From a virus (Duplodnaviria > Caudoviricetes): a stretch of DNA of 64,000 nucleotides. Location: positions 64,001 to 128,000 of the IMG/VR virus record IMGVR_UViG_3300047321_000298, one strand, 5' to 3'. The notes beneath the pieces were generated by a model. That model was given only the letters and a program-made list of their open reading frames with translations, was not told where the DNA came from and searched no databases. Shown piece by piece: positions 3,655 to 25,044 of the stretch (its first letter is position 1; the number at the start of each line of letters is the position of its first letter). The position numbers and the translations under genes are program-made.

Positions 3655-4592
3655 TTCGCTGTCCCGTAGAGAGCCACTGTCTTGCCGTACACTTGGCGCA
3701 TCGCCTGGATCGAGCCCAGACGCTCCAAGATGTCGCGGTGCTGGAACCAACCACCTGTGAAGTTGCGGCAGGAGCCGTTTACCTCAGCGCCATAGGCTTG
3801 GTGCTCGGTCGGTGAGGCGTGAAGTGGCTTGGACTCAACGAGCCGCTCATAGAGCGCAATATCTGACTCGCGCGAGGGATTTTTCTTGTCGTGAGTCAGA
3901 TACGAAACGCGTGCGCAGCGTGCGGCCGACATCGCCAAAAGGTCACAGACGGGAACATGCATACGCTCTTCGAGCGAGATGTATGGCAGGTGCCAGTTGC
4001 GTGCGTCGGAGCCGTTTGATGCGTATTTCACGACGCGCGGCTTTGACGCTTCGTAGGCCGTGATCATCGTGTGTGCCAGGTCTTGAATGTCCGGCTGCGC
4101 GTCTTCGTGGTCACGCAGTTCGTACCAGTTCTCCCATTCCGTAGCGGTAGCTACGACAGAGATTCGGGAATACGGCTCCAAATGTCGATTCACGATCTGT
4201 TTGTGGTAACCGGCTTCAGAGAACGCTTCAGCCCAATTGGCAGAGTGCGCGGCTGCACGGTCCCACGCTTCCTCGCGGGTCAGGAGTTCGCCTGTCATCG
4301 GATCGGCCACGAGGTTAGTGCACTCTTCGTGTGCTTGCATGCCCGGTTGGTTCTTCCCCCAGTGCACGGGCTTTGCTGCGTCCGTGCGTACTTCTTCGAG
4401 CAGCTTCGCAGTCGGGATGGCGCGCGACGAGGAAGCATTGCGCGAGAAAACTCGGTGAGTCAAGAACTCGGCATGGACGGCACGCCAGTAGCGTAGCTGG
4501 AACGTGAGCAGTTCCTTGCCGGTGTGTCCGTTAATCGAGTGTTCGATGACGGATACGAGTGCGGCTTTGCCTTGGAAGGTTTGATAGTTCAT
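3651..4592 (-). CDS. thyX: FAD-dependent thymidylate synthase ThyX
   Basis: LTHRVFSRNASSSRAIP (RHRxxSxxxxSxR-like motif), EDAQPDIQDLA, CARVSY, HASPTEH. Confidence 0.92.
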   Translation of the reverse strand: MNYQTFQGKAALVSVIEHSINGHTGKELLTFQLRYWRAVHAEFLTHRVFSRNASSSRAIPTAKLLEEVRTDAAKPVHWGKNQPGMQAHEECTNLVADPMTGELLTREEAWDRAAAHSANWAEAFSEAGYHKQIVNRHLEPYSRISVVATATEWENWYELRDHEDAQPDIQDLAHTMITAYEASKPRVVKYASNGSDARNWHLPYISLEERMHVPVCDLLAMSAARCARVSYLTHDKKNPSRESDIALYERLVESKPLHASPTEHQAYGAEVNGSCRNFTGGWFQHRDILERLGSIQAMRQVYGKTVALYGTAK

Positions 4593-5935
4593 TTCTTCTC
4601 TTTGTTGAACAAGTTTTGAGTTTTGGGTTCAGCCGTTTTTCGAGCGTGCTTGATCCGGGCCCGTGAAATCTCGACGTACTCTGGCGTCATGTCGATACCC
4701 GCGAATTTGAAACCTTCGAGCATGCAGGCTTTGCCCGTCGAACCTGAGCCCATGAAGGGGTCAAGCACAATTCCGTTGGGTGGAGTTACGAGTCGGACCA
4801 GATATCGCATCAAGTCTGTAGGCTTGACTGTGGGGTGAATATTGGCTCTTGGAAGATTCGGATTTTTAGCCGCATCTTTTGACCACCCACCGCCCCCGCC
4901 GTCCTTACTAGCTATGTGTGCCTTGGACTTCTTTTCAAAACTTTCCAGTCCGTCGTCACGATCTTTCTTTGATGCCTTGGCGCAGTAGAAGAAACGAGCG
5001 GCTGACCCCTTGTCGAGATATTGATTCGCACTATTGTCGTGTGGGTTCTTAAACTCCCCGTAACTCACGACATTATTTTTCAGGCCGCCCTTCTGGCGAC
5101 CGCCACCTCCCGAGGACCTCGCATCGGGGAATGCGGCTAGTACCTCATCCGAACCATCGTGGGTCACGTTCGCAGGCCAGCGGCCTAGGTCGCTTCCGTT
5201 AAAGCCCTCTTTCGGCGTCCACCCATCGTCGTTCATTCGCCCTAGTGAGCCAGGTGGGCGCTTTACGCGAGTTGATTCCGTTCCGACACGGCAACCATCA
5301 ATGTTGATAGCGCCTGTTCTGTGAGCCAGCACATTGTTAGCTACTGTTCCCTTGAAAGGTTTACGCGCAACACAGATGGGCTCGTGTGCCGGTTTAAGTG
5401 CAGTGCCCCAGCCATCCCACTCTTTTGCCGCGTCTGTTGCAGGTGCGGTAATAGCAGATAGATCAATGGTTTTTGTTTGTTCACCCGCGTGTAGCCTTCC
5501 ACCGCGCACATCTTGTTTGGGAGTTGCTTTTCTGCCAGCAGTATGATGGCCAATCACTTGGCGTTCTGCGCCTGCTGCCTTATCCAGAGCCTTTCCAACA
5601 TTTTGGGATTTTGGAAATCCCGAACCGTATAACCACATAATCTGGTCACGAATTTCGAAGCCCGCATCTTCGATTGCGCACACCATCCGATGGTAGGTAC
5701 GCGATCCGCTGAACGCTAGAAGATGTCCACCCGGTTTCAGAACTCGCAGTGCTTCTTTCCACAGATCGACGTTGTTGGCTATTCCCGATTTGTCCCAACC
5801 TTTTCCCATGAATCCGAGTTCGTACGGCGGATCACAAACTATCGAATGCACGGAGTTAGAGGGTATGGTTTTTAGAACTTGTTCGGACTTCCCCAGGAAC
5901 AACTGATATCTTGAACACTTATACTTTGGTTTCAT
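4589..5935 (-). CDS. orphan N6-adenine/N4-cytosine DNA methyltransferase (beta class)
   Basis: CDPPY catalytic motif N-terminal, HPTVKP and DPFMGSGSTG SAM-binding motif C-terminal; start moved to MKPKYK (5935). Confidence 0.9.
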   Translation of the reverse strand: MKPKYKCSRYQLFLGKSEQVLKTIPSNSVHSIVCDPPYELGFMGKGWDKSGIANNVDLWKEALRVLKPGGHLLAFSGSRTYHRMVCAIEDAGFEIRDQIMWLYGSGFPKSQNVGKALDKAAGAERQVIGHHTAGRKATPKQDVRGGRLHAGEQTKTIDLSAITAPATDAAKEWDGWGTALKPAHEPICVARKPFKGTVANNVLAHRTGAINIDGCRVGTESTRVKRPPGSLGRMNDDGWTPKEGFNGSDLGRWPANVTHDGSDEVLAAFPDARSSGGGGRQKGGLKNNVVSYGEFKNPHDNSANQYLDKGSAARFFYCAKASKKDRDDGLESFEKKSKAHIASKDGGGGGWSKDAAKNPNLPRANIHPTVKPTDLMRYLVRLVTPPNGIVLDPFMGSGSTGKACMLEGFKFAGIDMTPEYVEISRARIKHARKTAEPKTQNLFNKEKK

Positions 5936-22529: not shown

Positions 22530-22629
22530 TGTGTTCTCCGTTTTAACGGGGGCAAATACCCCTCACTTCTTATTTACGACAGTGGAGCAAGAAAGGGAGC
22601 GTGGTTGGAAATATGGGACCGACAGACGC

Positions 22630-22666
22630 AAAAAAGGGGAGTCGGATTTTAGTTTCCGCTCCCCTT
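22630..22666 (-). terminator. intrinsic terminator closing the ncRNA locus
   Basis: AAGGGGAG-CGGA...TCCG-A-CTCCCCTT followed by a T run. Confidence 0.85.
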
Positions 22667-22810
22667 GCTATTTTCTTTCTTCTGGACACTTCATAGTCAA
22701 ATGTGCAGGAGAAAGAGCGAATGCAGAAATCGTAGCTGAATCTGCATCCGCACTTCGGACGTTAATCCCAATCACATAGAGCAAGTCATCAAGGCTAGTT
22801 ACGATAACAA

Positions 22811-22919
22811 GAAAAGCCGACCCTCTACCGCTGAGGTACTCACCTCCCAAGATCACTTCAGCCGACAAATGATCTAGGGCAGGTGAGACGGGATTCGAAC
22901 CCGCGTCTTTCGACTTGAA
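22811..22919 (-). ncRNA. permuted tRNA-like domain B (YrlA/Y RNA-like topology)
   Basis: GTCGA-AAGAC-GCGGG TTCGAAT CCCGT-CTCACCT [hairpin] AGGTGAG-TA-CCTC AGCGGTA GAGG-G-TCGGC. Confidence 0.7.
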
Positions 22920-23022
22920 CCAGTGCTCTCATCCATTGGGTGCACTGGCAACCTTCCGCCTGCTTTAAACTGCGATTGCTTAATACAATGAGATTTGGGT
23001 AATACGATCAATGAAAGTTGCC

Positions 23023-23243
23023 GCTCGCTGCCGCACGTCTACCAATTCCGTCACCTCTGCACCAAACACGCTGCCATACTCAAAACCGGGTTATCGGGAA
23101 CCGGCTCTGATTAGAGCAGACGACCCAAACTTTTCCCAAGAAAAGATCGCTACCGTGGGAATCCACCCCCGTCGAGAAAGGTGGCACGACTACATACAGC
23201 AGTGTGTTTGGTGCAGAGGGGTGGAGTCGAACCACCACTGAGC
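23023..23243 (-). ncRNA. permuted tRNA-like domain A (Leu-type D loop, encoded ACCA)
   Basis: GGTGG TTCGACT CCACC-CCTCTGC-ACCA upstream of GCAGAGG-TG-ACG GAATTGGTAGA CGT; 20-bp inverted repeat 23054-23073/23200-23219. Confidence 0.65.
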
Positions 23244-23289
23244 TTCTACTATCAACGATAACTATAACGATTTCCCATTTATCTCAACT

Positions 23290-23937
23290 CTATAATTCAA
23301 TACTTTTTGAAGCGTACCGTCGTTTAGCCGCGAGTGACATATTAAGCCGCGCCTGTTCGCTGTGAACTCTTCCTCGGTTCCCCTTCCCGGTCATGCCGCG
23401 TCGTTGACCTTCCGACATGTTCATGCGGGACTGTTCAGTGTGGACACGCCCAAGGTTCAGCCTGCCTCCCATGCTAGGAGCCTTACGGCCCGCCGCCATG
23501 TTTCTCTTAGACTGTTCCGTGTGTTTATATCCACGTTCACGATGCTGCCAAGCCTCAGCCATTTTCCGTCGCGCTTCTGCGTCGTGCATATCGCCGCTGC
23601 GTCCCTCACCGCCGTCTGTCATATTCGCTAAACACCCGGTGCCGTTGTTGCGCCGACCGTAGAAAGCTATCGTGTTGATTTCACAGCCAAACGCCTGTTT
23701 CTCCGTTAGCTCCGTGGCCTCATACTCAATGTGAATTCGCTTACCTTCGCGAATCGCCTTGCGTATGATGTGGTTCTTGTAACTTGGTTTGGCTAACAAC
23801 TCAGGCTTCAAATGATTTCTAGCACGATTTGCCTTTCCTTTTCCGACGTAGAAGGGTAGCTCTTCATCATCCACTCTGAATTTATAAACGTAATATATTC
23901 GGTGTCTATCAAAGGGCTTCCCGTTCTTTCTCGGCAT
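23290..23937 (-). CDS. free-standing GIY-YIG homing endonuclease with NUMOD3 repeats
   Basis: YYVY...FYVGKG..NRA..H, NMTDGGEG, four H[ST]E..R.[NK]M repeats; AT-richer than flanks. Confidence 0.85.
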   Translation of the reverse strand: MPRKNGKPFDRHRIYYVYKFRVDDEELPFYVGKGKANRARNHLKPELLAKPSYKNHIIRKAIREGKRIHIEYEATELTEKQAFGCEINTIAFYGRRNNGTGCLANMTDGGEGRSGDMHDAEARRKMAEAWQHRERGYKHTEQSKRNMAAGRKAPSMGGRLNLGRVHTEQSRMNMSEGQRRGMTGKGNRGRVHSEQARLNMSLAAKRRYASKSIEL

Positions 23938-23947
23938 GGCATAGGTC

Positions 23948-23955
23948 TATTTACT
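23948..23955 (-). promoter_or_regulatory. AGTAAATA phage promoter motif
   Basis: exact motif about 10 nt upstream of the GIY-YIG ATG. Confidence 0.65.
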
Positions 23956-24014
23956 GTTGACTCTTCGAAATGAAATTGAATTCTATCGGAACGTCATCAG
24001 AACGCAACAGACGG

Positions 24015-24206
24015 TTACTGCTGTTTCTTCAAATCGAAAAAGAAGGTTAGGCGAATCTCACCGATGCCGGATGTCTCGTTGTCGGTCAGATCGTCTGAGT
24101 TCGAAATCGGATAGCAGTCCGTGAAGGTGAGATGTCTATCGTCATCGGTAACCACCCTGAGATTCGAACCTTCCCACCACAGACTTTTGATCCGGTGTTC
24201 GGACAT
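24015..24206 (-). CDS. hypothetical protein
   Basis: 63 aa ORF 2 nt after the upstream stop. Confidence 0.6.
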   Translation of the reverse strand: MSEHRIKSLWWEGSNLRVVTDDDRHLTFTDCYPISNSDDLTDNETSGIGEIRLTFFFDLKKQQ

Positions 24207-24208
24207 GT

Positions 24209-25003
24209 TTAAACCTGGTTGCTGGCTGGCGGATTACGCAGCGGCTCAAGGATCACTGCAATCAGGTCGCGGCCGATGTTCTGCGTCATCACAGGCACCG
24301 AGTTCGCGCGGGTCCGAGCCTGCTTAACAGCCGTGATCAGTTCGTCCAGAGTCGCGATAACCTGCGCCTTCTGGATTGCGGTCGTCGCGCCCGACACGTT
24401 TTCCTGCGTGAACGTGCCGATGATCTTGTCGCTGGTCACTTCCTTGACCTGTGCCGGGTGCTTGTCCGAGTGCGGGTACAGGACCACGGGCACAGTCTGC
24501 TTTTCGGTCTTGGTCGTGATCGACGGATGTGCTGCCTTCCACGTACCGGCTTGTGCCGCGTTGGGGTCGATGCGCCAATCCTTCGATGCGTCCAGCGTCG
24601 GGATTTGCATCGCGAGCTTGCGCAGTTCGCCCAGACGCACTTCCAGACCCATCAACTCATCGACCGGCACATTCTCTGCGAATGTTTGTCCACGGAATTC
24701 GATGTTGGCGAGAGCGGTCGTGTTGGTCAGGTTCTTCGACGCCAGAACGTCTTCGGCCTTCGCCCAGTAGCTCAGGAAGTAGTCCAGAGTCGTGAGCACC
24801 GTTGTCGGCAGCGTCTTATCCTGGCGCGCGGCCTTTTCGAGGTCTTCGTTGTTCGGATCGTCACCGAGCAGCTTCAGGGTCTTCGTGAAGCCCGTGAAGT
24901 AGTTGTCACCCTTTTCAAATTTCGTCAGGGTGTCCTTAGCCATCGCGTCGCGCGAATTTGTTGCCGTCTTTTCAGCGGCCAACAGTTCATGAAGTTGAGC
25001 CAT
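24209..25003 (-). CDS. hypothetical phage protein
   Basis: start at MAQLHELL (25003); AGTAAATA promoter motif at 25045. Confidence 0.75.
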   Translation of the reverse strand: MAQLHELLAAEKTATNSRDAMAKDTLTKFEKGDNYFTGFTKTLKLLGDDPNNEDLEKAARQDKTLPTTVLTTLDYFLSYWAKAEDVLASKNLTNTTALANIEFRGQTFAENVPVDELMGLEVRLGELRKLAMQIPTLDASKDWRIDPNAAQAGTWKAAHPSITTKTEKQTVPVVLYPHSDKHPAQVKEVTSDKIIGTFTQENVSGATTAIQKAQVIATLDELITAVKQARTRANSVPVMTQNIGRDLIAVILEPLRNPPASNQV

Positions 25004-25044
25004 GTGTGTTTGTATGAGCAAGAGTTATGGGGCCTTACACTTCT

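What the first reader, a model, noticed from the sequence alone, without database searches (positions are those of the whole stretch)
23023..23243. Domain A: permuted Leu-type tRNA halves with encoded CCA and a 126-nt branched linker
Seen: the 3' half (T arm, CCTCTGC, ACCA) lies upstream of the 5' half (GCAGAGG, TG, Leu-style D loop GAATTGGTAGA). The acceptor helix extends as a 20-bp inverted repeat with one mismatch, enclosing several hairpins (CCACCTTT/GGGGGTGG, CTTTTC/GAAAAG, GCTCT/AGAGC). There is no anticodon arm. Known: two-piece tmRNA genes use this permuted layout and are cut by RNase P and 3' nucleases. Inference: processing could give a chargeable (A73) two-piece tRNA mimic.
Basis: partly seen in the sequence, partly recalled or inferred. 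Interest (0 to 1): 0.8.

Follow-up and report, generated by a model that had tools for sequence, protein, structure and literature searches.

The report
Phage tRNA-Leu-shaped mimic RNA module
The flagged stretch is a real, conserved phage RNA module folded like a leucine tRNA with its two halves swapped and its acceptor end closed by a long hairpin. It is the first of two such modules that follow a gene of unknown function (DUF7873) in over a hundred phage sequences, so it is a tRNA mimic related in design to bacterial Y RNAs, not a working tRNA or a tmRNA.

Summary
On the minus strand, 23243-23023 holds a T arm, a 7-bp acceptor helix, ACCA, a 13-bp helix extension, a 126-nt insert, U8-G9 and a leucine-type D arm, in permuted order.

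It is not chance or gene decay. Every one of 33 viral loci and one cyanobacterial locus with a DUF7873 gene has one or two such modules just downstream, as do 45 of 55 usable metagenome loci. All 7 acceptor pairs covary (99% of cells paired in 26 modules; 0 of 500 shuffles reach this). The tRNA tertiary nucleotides are invariant or nearly so.

The closest known class is YrlA, the tRNA-like bacterial Y RNA. Membership fails, though: there is no Ro60 gene, no conserved Ro60-binding motif, and the Rfam score is below threshold.

It is weakly supported here. CCA is present in only 4 of 18 sister modules, it is base-paired, and phiRSL1 keeps the pairing through a compensatory change. Many homologs close the acceptor with a 5-9-nt loop. 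The insert interior is not conserved and folds no better than shuffled sequence.

The most likely role is an uncut tRNA-shaped scaffold or decoy working with DUF7873. The same locus was already flagged in this scan (Domain B).

The parts
23240..23243 (-). 5' strand (GCUC) of a short closing helix, in the position of a tRNA variable arm
   Evidence: It pairs with GAGC at 23026-23023. phiRSL1 has GAACUC/GAGUUC at the homologous place, with one G-C to A-U compensatory change. L005 has GGGGC/GCCCC, L052 GCCUA/UAGGC and L031 GCUCUC/GAGAGC.
23220..23237 (-). U48 equivalent (23237) and the T arm (5-bp stem, loop UUCGACU)
   Evidence: Read directly. In 26 sister modules the T stem is 99% paired with 4 covarying pairs, and U48, U54, U55, C56 and A58 are invariant.
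23213..23219 (-). Acceptor 3' strand CCUCUGC
   Evidence: It pairs 7 of 7 with 23060-23054. All 7 pairs covary across the family.
23200..23212 (-). A73-C74-C75-A76 and the rest of the 13-nt 5' strand of the acceptor extension helix
   Evidence: It pairs with 23073-23061, with one A-C mismatch that is a G-C pair in L002. phiRSL1 has ATCA/TGAT. A73 is kept in 22 of 26 modules and C74 in 20 of 26.
23074..23199 (-). 126-nt insert at the tip of the acceptor hairpin
   Evidence: It is absent in phiRSL1, which has a roughly 30-nt hairpin. The base motifs CUGCUGUAUGU and GAGU..GGCA are shared with L002, L004 and L052. The interior is not alike between the window and L004 (z -0.96). Its fold gives z -0.9. 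It is unique in the genome.
23061..23073 (-). 3' strand of the acceptor extension helix (CAGCGUGUUUGGU)
   Evidence: It is nearly identical in phiRSL1 (CAGCGTGTTTGAT).
23052..23060 (-). Acceptor 5' strand GCAGAGG, then U8 and G9
   Evidence: U8 is kept in 25 of 26 modules.
23035..23051 (-). Leucine-type (class II) D arm: 3-bp stem and 11-nt loop GAAUUGGUAGA
   Evidence: The D stem covaries at 3 of 3 pairs. A14 and one G of the G18-G19 pair are invariant; A15, the other G and A21 are kept in 24-25 of 26 modules. The pattern matches the authentic tRNA-Leu(UAA) in L004.
23023..23034 (-). 8 nt (GCGGCAGC) where homologs carry an anticodon-arm-like hairpin, then the 3' strand (GAGC) of the closing helix
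   Evidence: The homolog hairpins are shown.
22818..22912 (-). Domain B, the second permuted tRNA-like module (class I D arm)
   Evidence: Rfam YrlA scores 30.1 bits, E 0.0004, below the threshold of 69. It is 74.5% identical to phiRSL1 over 194 nt.
22626..22668 (-). Terminator-like hairpin followed by a U run; the likely 3' end of the RNA
   Evidence: Fold -22.8 kcal/mol, z -4.3. It was not flagged by the simple terminator scan because its loop is long.
23290..23937 (-). GIY-YIG/NUMOD3 homing endonuclease gene inserted between the promoter-like motif and the RNA
   Evidence: Pfam and PHROGs matches. It is absent from L002, whose DUF7873 is 99% identical.
23948..23956 (-). CAGTAAATA, a recurrent phage promoter-like motif upstream of the unit
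   Evidence: There are 8 copies in the window against 0.16 expected. The shared core AGTAAATA lies some 50-110 nt upstream of module A's T arm in L002, phiRSL1, L004 and L052.
24209..25021 (-). DUF7873 gene, the only conserved neighbour of the RNA
   Evidence: Pfam PF25283, E 5.5e-65. It is the only window ORF in this neighbourhood conserved across the 33 viral loci.

Best explanation
Domain A is the first of two tandem modules of a roughly 600-nt phage non-coding RNA (about 1.3 kb in this phage, whose transcript probably also carries the inserted endonuclease gene). The RNA is probably transcribed from a CAGTAAATA promoter-like motif and ends at a terminator near 22630.

The module folds as a class II (leucine-type) tRNA body. 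The chain enters and leaves through the variable-arm position, and the acceptor ends are joined by a hairpin. It keeps the T arm, the 7-bp acceptor, U8, A14, A15-U48, G18-G19 and A73, so it should form the tRNA L-shape. It has no anticodon, so it cannot decode.

I infer that it works uncut, as a tRNA-shaped protein-binding scaffold or decoy. Its partner would be the adjacent DUF7873 protein, a host enzyme specific for tRNA-Leu, or both. This is analogous to YrlA Y RNAs with Ro60, but without Ro60.

The 126-nt insert is a lineage-specific expansion at the hairpin tip. That site also accepts a homing endonuclease gene in a relative.

Shown: the structure, its conservation, and the linkage to DUF7873. 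Inferred: transcription, the partner, and the function.
For: - The sequence anatomy is as described.
- A homolog lies in an intergenic gap of Ralstonia phage phiRSL1, with compensatory changes in the acceptor, D stem, extension and closing helix.
- All 33 viral DUF7873 loci carry one or two such modules shortly after the gene, about 35-190 nt after the stop where measured. So does a copy in the Calothrix brevissima genome (62 bits). So do 45 of 55 usable metagenome loci under strict criteria.
- DUF7873 is the only conserved neighbour.
- Covariation on a MAFFT alignment of 10 modules: acceptor 98.6% paired, 7 of 7 pairs changed on both sides, 0 of 500 shuffles as high, slid controls about 41% paired.
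- Covariation on 26 model-aligned modules: 99% paired, covariation score 0.83 against 0.24.
- The tertiary nucleotides are invariant or nearly so.
- A 1-nt indel between the window and L002, inside the insert, argues against coding.
- Rfam's nearest family is YrlA. Published work describes most YrlA RNAs as circularly permuted tRNAs with closed acceptor stems (10.1101/312249).
- Many sister modules close the acceptor with 5-9-nt loops and lack CCA.
Against: - There are no expression or end-mapping data.
- Nothing shows that DUF7873 binds RNA. Its confident model (pLDDT 89.6) matches no known fold.
- A73 and C74 are conserved in this module type, and NCCA is common in the second type. This hints that the acceptor end itself is under selection, which an uncut scaffold does not obviously need.
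- This copy has a 20-29-bp duplex that looks like an RNase III substrate.
Confidence: 0.6

Rival explanations
1. The long acceptor-extension duplex is opened, perhaps by RNase III in the 20-29-bp helix. RNase P then cuts 5' of G1 (23060) and exonucleases trim back to A76 (23209). The result is a nicked, two-piece tRNA-like RNA with a free ACCA end that LeuRS might charge.
For: - M. smegmatis YrlA has a 7-bp acceptor, is cut by RNase P in vitro and in vivo, and gains CCA (PMC4201824).
- This copy has a 7-bp acceptor, A73 and an encoded CCA.
- All 10 tRNA genes of the phage encode CCA.
- A73 is kept in 22 of 26 modules. NCCA occurs in 16 of 29 second-type modules, tallied by eye.
- From established knowledge, E. 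coli LeuRS identity rests on A73 and D/T-loop tertiary features, not on the anticodon.
Against: - CCA is present in only 4 of 18 modules of this type.
- In this copy A73 to A76 are all paired, and phiRSL1 keeps the pairing through ATCA/TGAT.
- From established knowledge, a paired -1/73 position and a continuous duplex are poor for RNase P.
- Many homologs leave no room for a free end (loops of 5-9 nt).
- The phage has no CCA-adding enzyme.
Confidence: 0.2
2. The modules are cis-acting transcript elements. They would be tRNA-shaped processing or stability signals at the 3' side of the DUF7873 (and endonuclease) message. They would be cut by tRNA-processing enzymes or would block exonucleases, with no role of their own in trans.
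For: - They always lie just 3' of DUF7873 on the same strand.
- In L004 a homing endonuclease ORF sits inside the acceptor loop of module B and so must be translated from the same RNA.
- The published suggestion for YrlA is that the stable tRNA fold protects the RNA from nucleases (PMC4201824).
Against: - A promoter-like motif (core AGTAAATA) lies between DUF7873 and the modules in L002, phiRSL1, L004 and L052. This suggests separate transcription.
- A simple stabiliser would not need a conserved leucine-type D arm, A73, and two different module types.
Confidence: 0.13
3. The stretch is a decaying remnant of two tandem tRNA-Leu genes: the 3' half of one and the 5' half of the next. It would have no function.
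For: Tandem tRNAs can mimic this layout and score as false hits (noted in PMC4201824; weak tandem-tRNA hits appear). A dimeric pre-tRNA is the proposed evolutionary origin of YrlA (10.1101/312249).
Against: All 7 acceptor pairs between the two 'halves' show compensatory changes across dozens of phages. The tertiary nucleotides are invariant or nearly so. The linkage to DUF7873 holds down to 28% protein identity.
Confidence: 0.02
4. The stretch is a two-piece (permuted) tmRNA gene.
For: The gene order is permuted, with a T arm and acceptor. There is a weak Rfam beta_tmRNA hit over the T arm and acceptor only (11.6 bits).
Against: - The score is far below the threshold of 84 bits.
- Position 3-70 is A-U, not G-U.
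- A full D arm is present.
- No tag reading frame or pseudoknots were seen, and ARAGORN calls no tmRNA.
Confidence: 0.01

Closest known systems
YrlA (Y RNA-like A, Rfam RF02553), the tRNA-like domain of bacterial and mycobacteriophage Y RNAs
   Same: The order is the same: T arm, closed acceptor-like stem-loop, D arm. The tRNA tertiary nucleotides are kept and there is no anticodon. The M. smegmatis member has a 7-bp acceptor that is opened by RNase P and gains CCA. The proposed origin is a dimeric tRNA precursor. (PMC4201824; 10.1101/312249)
   Different: - No Ro60/TROVE gene in this phage or in 5 complete relatives.
- The GNCGAA motif is not conserved. It is present by Domain B in the window but absent in phiRSL1 and L004.
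- Rfam gives no hit for Domain A and 30 bits for Domain B against a threshold of 69.
- There are two tandem modules of different types, linked to DUF7873.
- Domain A has a class II leucine-type D arm. Homologs have a closing helix in the variable-arm position plus a separate hairpin in the anticodon-arm position.
- The acceptor extension is long and carries an insert.
Two-piece (circularly permuted) tmRNA genes of alpha-, some beta-proteobacteria and cyanobacteria
   Same: The acceptor piece (T arm, 3' acceptor strand, CCA) is encoded upstream of the piece that starts with the 5' acceptor strand. The intervening segment is removed, probably by RNase P and a 3' nuclease (PMC3985003).
   Different: There is no G3-U70 alanine identity pair. 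No tag frame or pseudoknots were seen. Domain A has a full D arm, and the Rfam score is far below threshold.
Permuted tRNA genes of Cyanidioschyzon merolae, some green algae and an archaeon
   Same: The 3' half lies upstream of the 5' half, and the acceptor is first a closed loop that is later opened (cited in 10.1101/312249 and PMC3985003).
   Different: Those genes yield complete decoding tRNAs through a splicing endonuclease and a circular intermediate. Here no anticodon stem can be formed from the flanks of this copy, and bacteria and phages are not known to have that endonuclease.
Canonical bacterial or phage tRNA-Leu
   Same: The segment from U8-G9 through the D arm is almost the same as in the tRNA-Leu(UAA) of phage L004. 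A73, the A15-U48 pair, the T loop and the 7-bp acceptor are shared.
   Different: The order is permuted, the acceptor is closed, there is no anticodon arm, and there is no variable-arm loop. Rfam's tRNA model does not match it. ARAGORN's 'tRNA-Asp(atc)' call at 23209-23293 is a false call built on the T arm and ACCA.

Membership tests
YrlA (Rfam RF02553) | tRNA-like domain in the order T arm, closed acceptor-like stem-loop, D arm, with the tRNA tertiary nucleotides | tested here: met
YrlA (Rfam RF02553) | Score at or above the Rfam gathering threshold (69 bits) | tested here: not met
   Domain A has no YrlA hit at E up to 10. Domain B scores 30.1 bits and the phiRSL1 module B 32 bits.
YrlA (Rfam RF02553) | Encoded within about 4 kb of a Ro60 (Rsr, TROVE) gene on the same strand | tested here: not met
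   There is no TROVE match in the whole 245.5-kb phage or in 5 complete relatives. The positive controls were found.
YrlA (Rfam RF02553) | GNCGAAN(0-1)G motif near the 5' end (the putative Ro60 contact) | tested here: not met
   Read by eye. There is none beside Domain A. GTCGAAAG lies upstream of Domain B in the window, but the homologous sites in phiRSL1 and L004 lack it.
YrlA (Rfam RF02553) | Bound by Ro60; modified by TruB and DusA | not testable with these tools
   This needs immunoprecipitation and modification mapping.
Two-piece tmRNA | G3-U70 alanine identity pair in the acceptor | tested here: not met
   Position 3-70 is A-U (GCAGAGG with CCTCTGC).
Two-piece tmRNA | Tag reading frame and pseudoknots; detection by ARAGORN or the Rfam tmRNA models | tested here: not met
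   ARAGORN finds no tmRNA. beta_tmRNA scores 11.6 bits against a threshold of 84.
Functional (decoding) tRNA-Leu, including a permuted tRNA gene | Anticodon stem-loop that can be formed locally or from the flanks | tested here: not met
   Only 8 nt lie between the D arm and the closing helix. The flanks give no 5-bp stem with a 7-nt loop. Loops at this position in homologs are not conserved: tetraloops, or 6-, 7- or 9-nt loops.
Functional (decoding) tRNA-Leu, including a permuted tRNA gene | Free 5' G1 and 3' A73-CCA ends after processing | not testable with these tools
   No RNA run was listed, so ends could not be mapped.
DUF7873-linked tandem tRNA-mimic RNA (the family defined here) | Permuted module shortly after (mostly within about 200 nt of) a DUF7873 gene on the same strand, with a covarying 7-bp acceptor | tested here: met
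   Found in 33 of 33 viral loci, 1 of 1 genome locus, and 45 of 55 metagenome loci under strict criteria. In the window the spacing is larger because of a small ORF and an inserted endonuclease gene.

The most novel reading that the evidence does not exclude
DUF7873 and its tandem tRNA-mimic RNA form a previously undescribed, Ro60-independent phage ribonucleoprotein cassette. In lineages like this one, the leucine-type module is opened at the acceptor to give a two-piece, A73-CCA-ended tRNA-Leu look-alike. That RNA would engage LeuRS or a host factor that targets tRNA-Leu, for example as a decoy against a tRNA-directed defence.
Probability: 0.12. Interest if true: 0.85.

Novelty: new variant of a known kind. 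Interest (0 to 1): 0.6.

Why it matters
tRNA mimics with closed acceptor stems are known so far as partners of Ro60. Here the same design recurs in more than a hundred phage sequences and one cyanobacterial genome, without Ro60. It is tied instead to one protein family of unknown fold and function. That gives DUF7873 a candidate RNA partner. It also offers a culturable model, phiRSL1 on Ralstonia solanacearum, for asking what phages gain from non-decoding tRNA shapes.

Sequence conservation is unusual in this module type. A whole leucine-type D arm and A73 are kept while the acceptor sequence drifts freely. This points to a tRNA-Leu-specific interaction that can be tested.

I found no paper describing this cassette.

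Tried and rejected
- **Rfam:** at gathering and at E up to 10, only sub-threshold YrlA and tmRNA hits appeared.
- **DUF7873 function:**
  - The profile search of PDB sequences gave no hit.
  - Foldseek against PDB gave nothing at E up to 0.001.
  - The wide structural search gave only generic helical matches, Z up to 8.4.
  - The ESM Atlas returned only its own family.
  - PHROGs gave no hit.
- **RNA evidence:** no RNA holder was listed for the window stretch or for the phiRSL1 stretch. Only DNA runs from soil, rhizosphere and plant metagenomes were listed.
- **Insert as a mobile-element remnant:**
  - A pattern scan found a third match (L045) inside an HNH endonuclease gene. The interiors are not alike (z 1.4), and a 20-base pattern with a variable gap is expected to hit a collection of that size by chance.
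  - The insert is unique in the genome.
- **Insert consensus fold:** the four-sequence alignment was partly out of register, so no robust covariation could be drawn for the insert interior.
- **Long-range helix enclosing both modules:** it is favourable in the window (-20.6 kcal/mol, z -3.1) and in L014 (z -4.0), but not in most relatives.
- **ARAGORN's tRNA-Asp(atc) at 23209-23293:** rejected as a false call.
- **Coding reading of the overlapping ORFs (23011-23241 plus strand, 23080-23238 minus strand):** rejected because of the 1-nt indel against L002 and the absence of the insert in phiRSL1.

Full report
**1. What is there**

The window is bases 64001-128000 of a 245.5-kb phage record with terminal repeats. 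The finding reads on the minus strand, which is also the strand of the phage's ten tRNA genes.

From 23243 down to 23023 the sequence gives:
- a 4-nt strand GCUC
- three bases ending in U
- a T arm (GGTGG, TTCGACT, CCACC)
- CCTCTGC
- ACCA, continuing as a 13-nt strand
- a 126-nt insert
- the complementary 13-nt strand
- GCAGAGG
- TG
- a D arm with a 3-bp stem and the loop GAATTGGTAGA
- 8 nt, GCGGCAGC
- GAGC

The repeat finder confirms arms of 21 nt, 95% complementary, 124 nt apart.

Rfam's tRNA model does not match this stretch. ARAGORN's 'tRNA-Asp(atc)' at 23209-23293 is a false call built on the T arm and ACCA.

**2. It is a conserved RNA, not chance or decay**

Ralstonia phage phiRSL1 carries the same element in the gap between ORF270 and ORF269. 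There the acceptor is CTCCTGC/GTAGGAG, the D stem is GCG/CGC, and the hairpin above the acceptor is only about 30 nt. ACCA has become ATCA while its partner TGGT has become TGAT.

ORF270 is a DUF7873 protein, as is the window ORF at 25021-24209. I used that protein to fetch relatives:
- All 33 viral loci have one or two permuted modules shortly after the gene.
- A copy in the Calothrix brevissima genome has one module, 62 bits with my covariance model.
- 45 of 55 non-redundant metagenome loci with enough downstream DNA have a module under strict criteria: a 7 of 7 acceptor plus a D arm.

DUF7873 is the only neighbouring gene conserved among the viral loci.

Covariation results:
- On a MAFFT alignment of ten modules, the acceptor is 98.6% paired. 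All seven pairs change on both sides. No shuffle of 500 reaches the observed values. Sliding the partner strand drops pairing to about 41%.
- On 26 model-aligned modules, 99% of cells pair and the covariation score is 0.83 against 0.24 for shuffles.
- U48, U54, U55, C56, A58, A14 and one G of the G18-G19 pair are invariant. U8, A15, the other G and A21 are kept in 24-25 of 26.

This rules out a decaying pair of tRNA genes. A 1-nt indel between the window and its 99% relative L002, and the absence of the insert in phiRSL1, rule out a coding reading.

**3. Anatomy of the module type**

Two module types recur.
- The first, which includes Domain A, has U8-G9 or U8-A9 followed by GCG/GAAYUGGYAGA/CGC. 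This is the D arm of leucine tRNAs. An authentic tRNA-Leu(UAA) in phage L004 shows the same string.
- The second, Domain B, has the common class I D arm GCUC/AGYGGUA/GAGC.

In phiRSL1, L004, L005, L006, L008, L024, L028, L031 and L052, the first module is followed by a hairpin where the anticodon arm would be. Its loop is not conserved: 7 nt in phiRSL1 and L004, 6 nt in L005, tetraloops in L006, L008 and L052. A short helix then pairs with the bases just upstream of the T arm.

The module is therefore a class II tRNA opened at the variable arm and closed at the acceptor. In the window this is reduced to GCUC/GAGC and 8 unpaired or weakly paired bases.

**4. The insert**

The window, L002, L004 and L052 have inserts of 100-150 nt at the tip of the acceptor hairpin. 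They share the base motifs CUGCUGUAUGU and GAGU..GGCA, which extend the helix with G-U pairs. G-U pairs make sense only on this strand as RNA.
- The interiors of the window and L004 inserts are unrelated (z -0.96).
- The window and L052 inserts share a few short strings.
- The window insert alone folds no better than shuffled sequence (z -0.9).
- It is unique in the genome.

In L004 the acceptor loop of the second module holds a complete HNH endonuclease ORF. In the window a GIY-YIG endonuclease gene has been inserted just upstream of Domain A; it is absent in L002. The hairpin tip and its flanks therefore tolerate insertions. I read the 126-nt 'branched linker' as a lineage-specific expansion, not a designed domain.

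**5. Transcription unit**

CAGTAAATA occurs 8 times in the window against 0.16 expected. One copy lies before DUF7873 and one before the endonuclease gene. In L002, phiRSL1, L004 and L052 its core, AGTAAATA, lies some 50-110 nt upstream of the first module's T arm. A strong hairpin with a U run lies at 22668-22626. I infer one transcript that runs from the motif through both modules. No RNA data could be found to test this.

**6. Comparison with known systems**

The nearest Rfam family is YrlA, at 30-32 bits on the second module against a threshold of 69. YrlA RNAs are described as circularly permuted tRNAs with closed acceptor stems that bind Ro60 (PMC4201824; 10.1101/312249).

The design here is the same, but membership fails:
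- There is no TROVE gene in this phage or in five complete relatives.
- There is no conserved GNCGAA motif.
- The score is below threshold.

The phage does encode RtcB far outside the window, as do two of five relatives. It has no CCA-adding enzyme and no match to the Pfam RNA_ligase (PF09414) family.

The tmRNA analogy fails on the A3-U70 pair, the full D arm, the lack of a tag frame seen, and the score.

I found no paper on DUF7873 or on this cassette. A 2026 preprint on other bacterial tRNA mimics describes different families.

**7.

It has a real precedent. M. smegmatis YrlA has a 7-bp acceptor, is cut by RNase P, and gains CCA (PMC4201824).

In favour here:
- the 7-bp acceptor
- A73 kept in 22 of 26 modules
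- NCCA in 16 of 29 second-type modules by my hand tally
- CCA encoded in all the phage's tRNA genes

Against, for Domain A:
- CCA in only 4 of 18 sister modules
- full pairing of A73 to A76, with a compensatory change in phiRSL1
- a continuous 20-29-bp duplex that RNase P should not open by itself
- many homologs with 5-9-nt loops directly on the acceptor

An RNase III cut in the long duplex could come first, but that is inference only. I put processing at about 0.2 and leucine charging at about 0.1.

**8. Verdict**

The best reading is an uncut, non-decoding, leucine-type tRNA mimic. It is module A of a tandem RNA linked to DUF7873, and is a new variant of the YrlA kind that works without Ro60.

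This scan had already flagged the same locus. The follow-up on Domain B reached the same family-level reading, which I re-derived independently here.

Noticed in passing
L004:4350-4905: In a related phage, the acceptor hairpin of the second module carries a complete HNH homing endonuclease ORF (about 4380-4862). It sits between the strands TCACTGTGTA and TATACAGTGA, so a protein gene lies inside a tRNA-mimic loop.
   Followed up: partly
window 23275-23250, 23010-22995, 22812-22795 (minus strand) and the homologous flanks in L003-L013: U-C-G-U-rich strings of the ATCGTTATAGT, GTCGTTGTCGT type flank the modules on both sides. Across 24 loci, TCGT occurs 75 times on the RNA strand, against 37 expected and 24 for its complement. 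This may be a single-strand protein-binding motif.
   Followed up: partly
window 158, 15930, 23948, 25045, 33942, 38560 (minus strand); 46459, 52787 (plus strand): CAGTAAATA occurs 8 times against 0.16 expected. The two copies near the finding lie some 10-25 nt before gene starts. It is probably a phage promoter or another start signal.
   Followed up: partly
window 23209-23293 (minus strand): ARAGORN calls a tRNA-Asp with anticodon ATC here. It is a false call built from Domain A's T arm, acceptor strand and ACCA; Rfam's tRNA model does not match.
   Followed up: yes
L001:3472-3595 (phiRSL1, just after ORF269): A tRNA matches Rfam at 41 bits with a 62-nt insertion in the anticodon region. This may be an intron-bearing or interrupted tRNA gene that is not annotated in the record.
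   Followed up: no
G000:C1:143003-144133 (outside the window): The phage encodes a full RtcB RNA ligase (408 bits), as do phiRSL1 and the phage of L008. In the latter it lies about 4 kb downstream of the RNA on the same strand. In bacteria, RtcB is the operon partner of Ro60 and YrlA.
   Followed up: partly
window 24015-24206 (minus strand): A 63-codon ORF lies between DUF7873 and the CAGTAAATA motif. It is also present in L002 but not in more distant relatives.
   Followed up: no
L048:1501-2123 (Calothrix brevissima NIES-22, AP018207.1): A cyanobacterial chromosome carries a DUF7873 relative (35% identity). About 35 nt later comes a closed module with a 5-nt acceptor loop. This may be a prophage or an acquired cassette.
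   Followed up: partly
whole phage genome (G000): The phage has ten tRNA genes, all with encoded CCA and all on one strand within about 6 kb. None is for leucine, although the mimic is leucine-type.
   Followed up: partly
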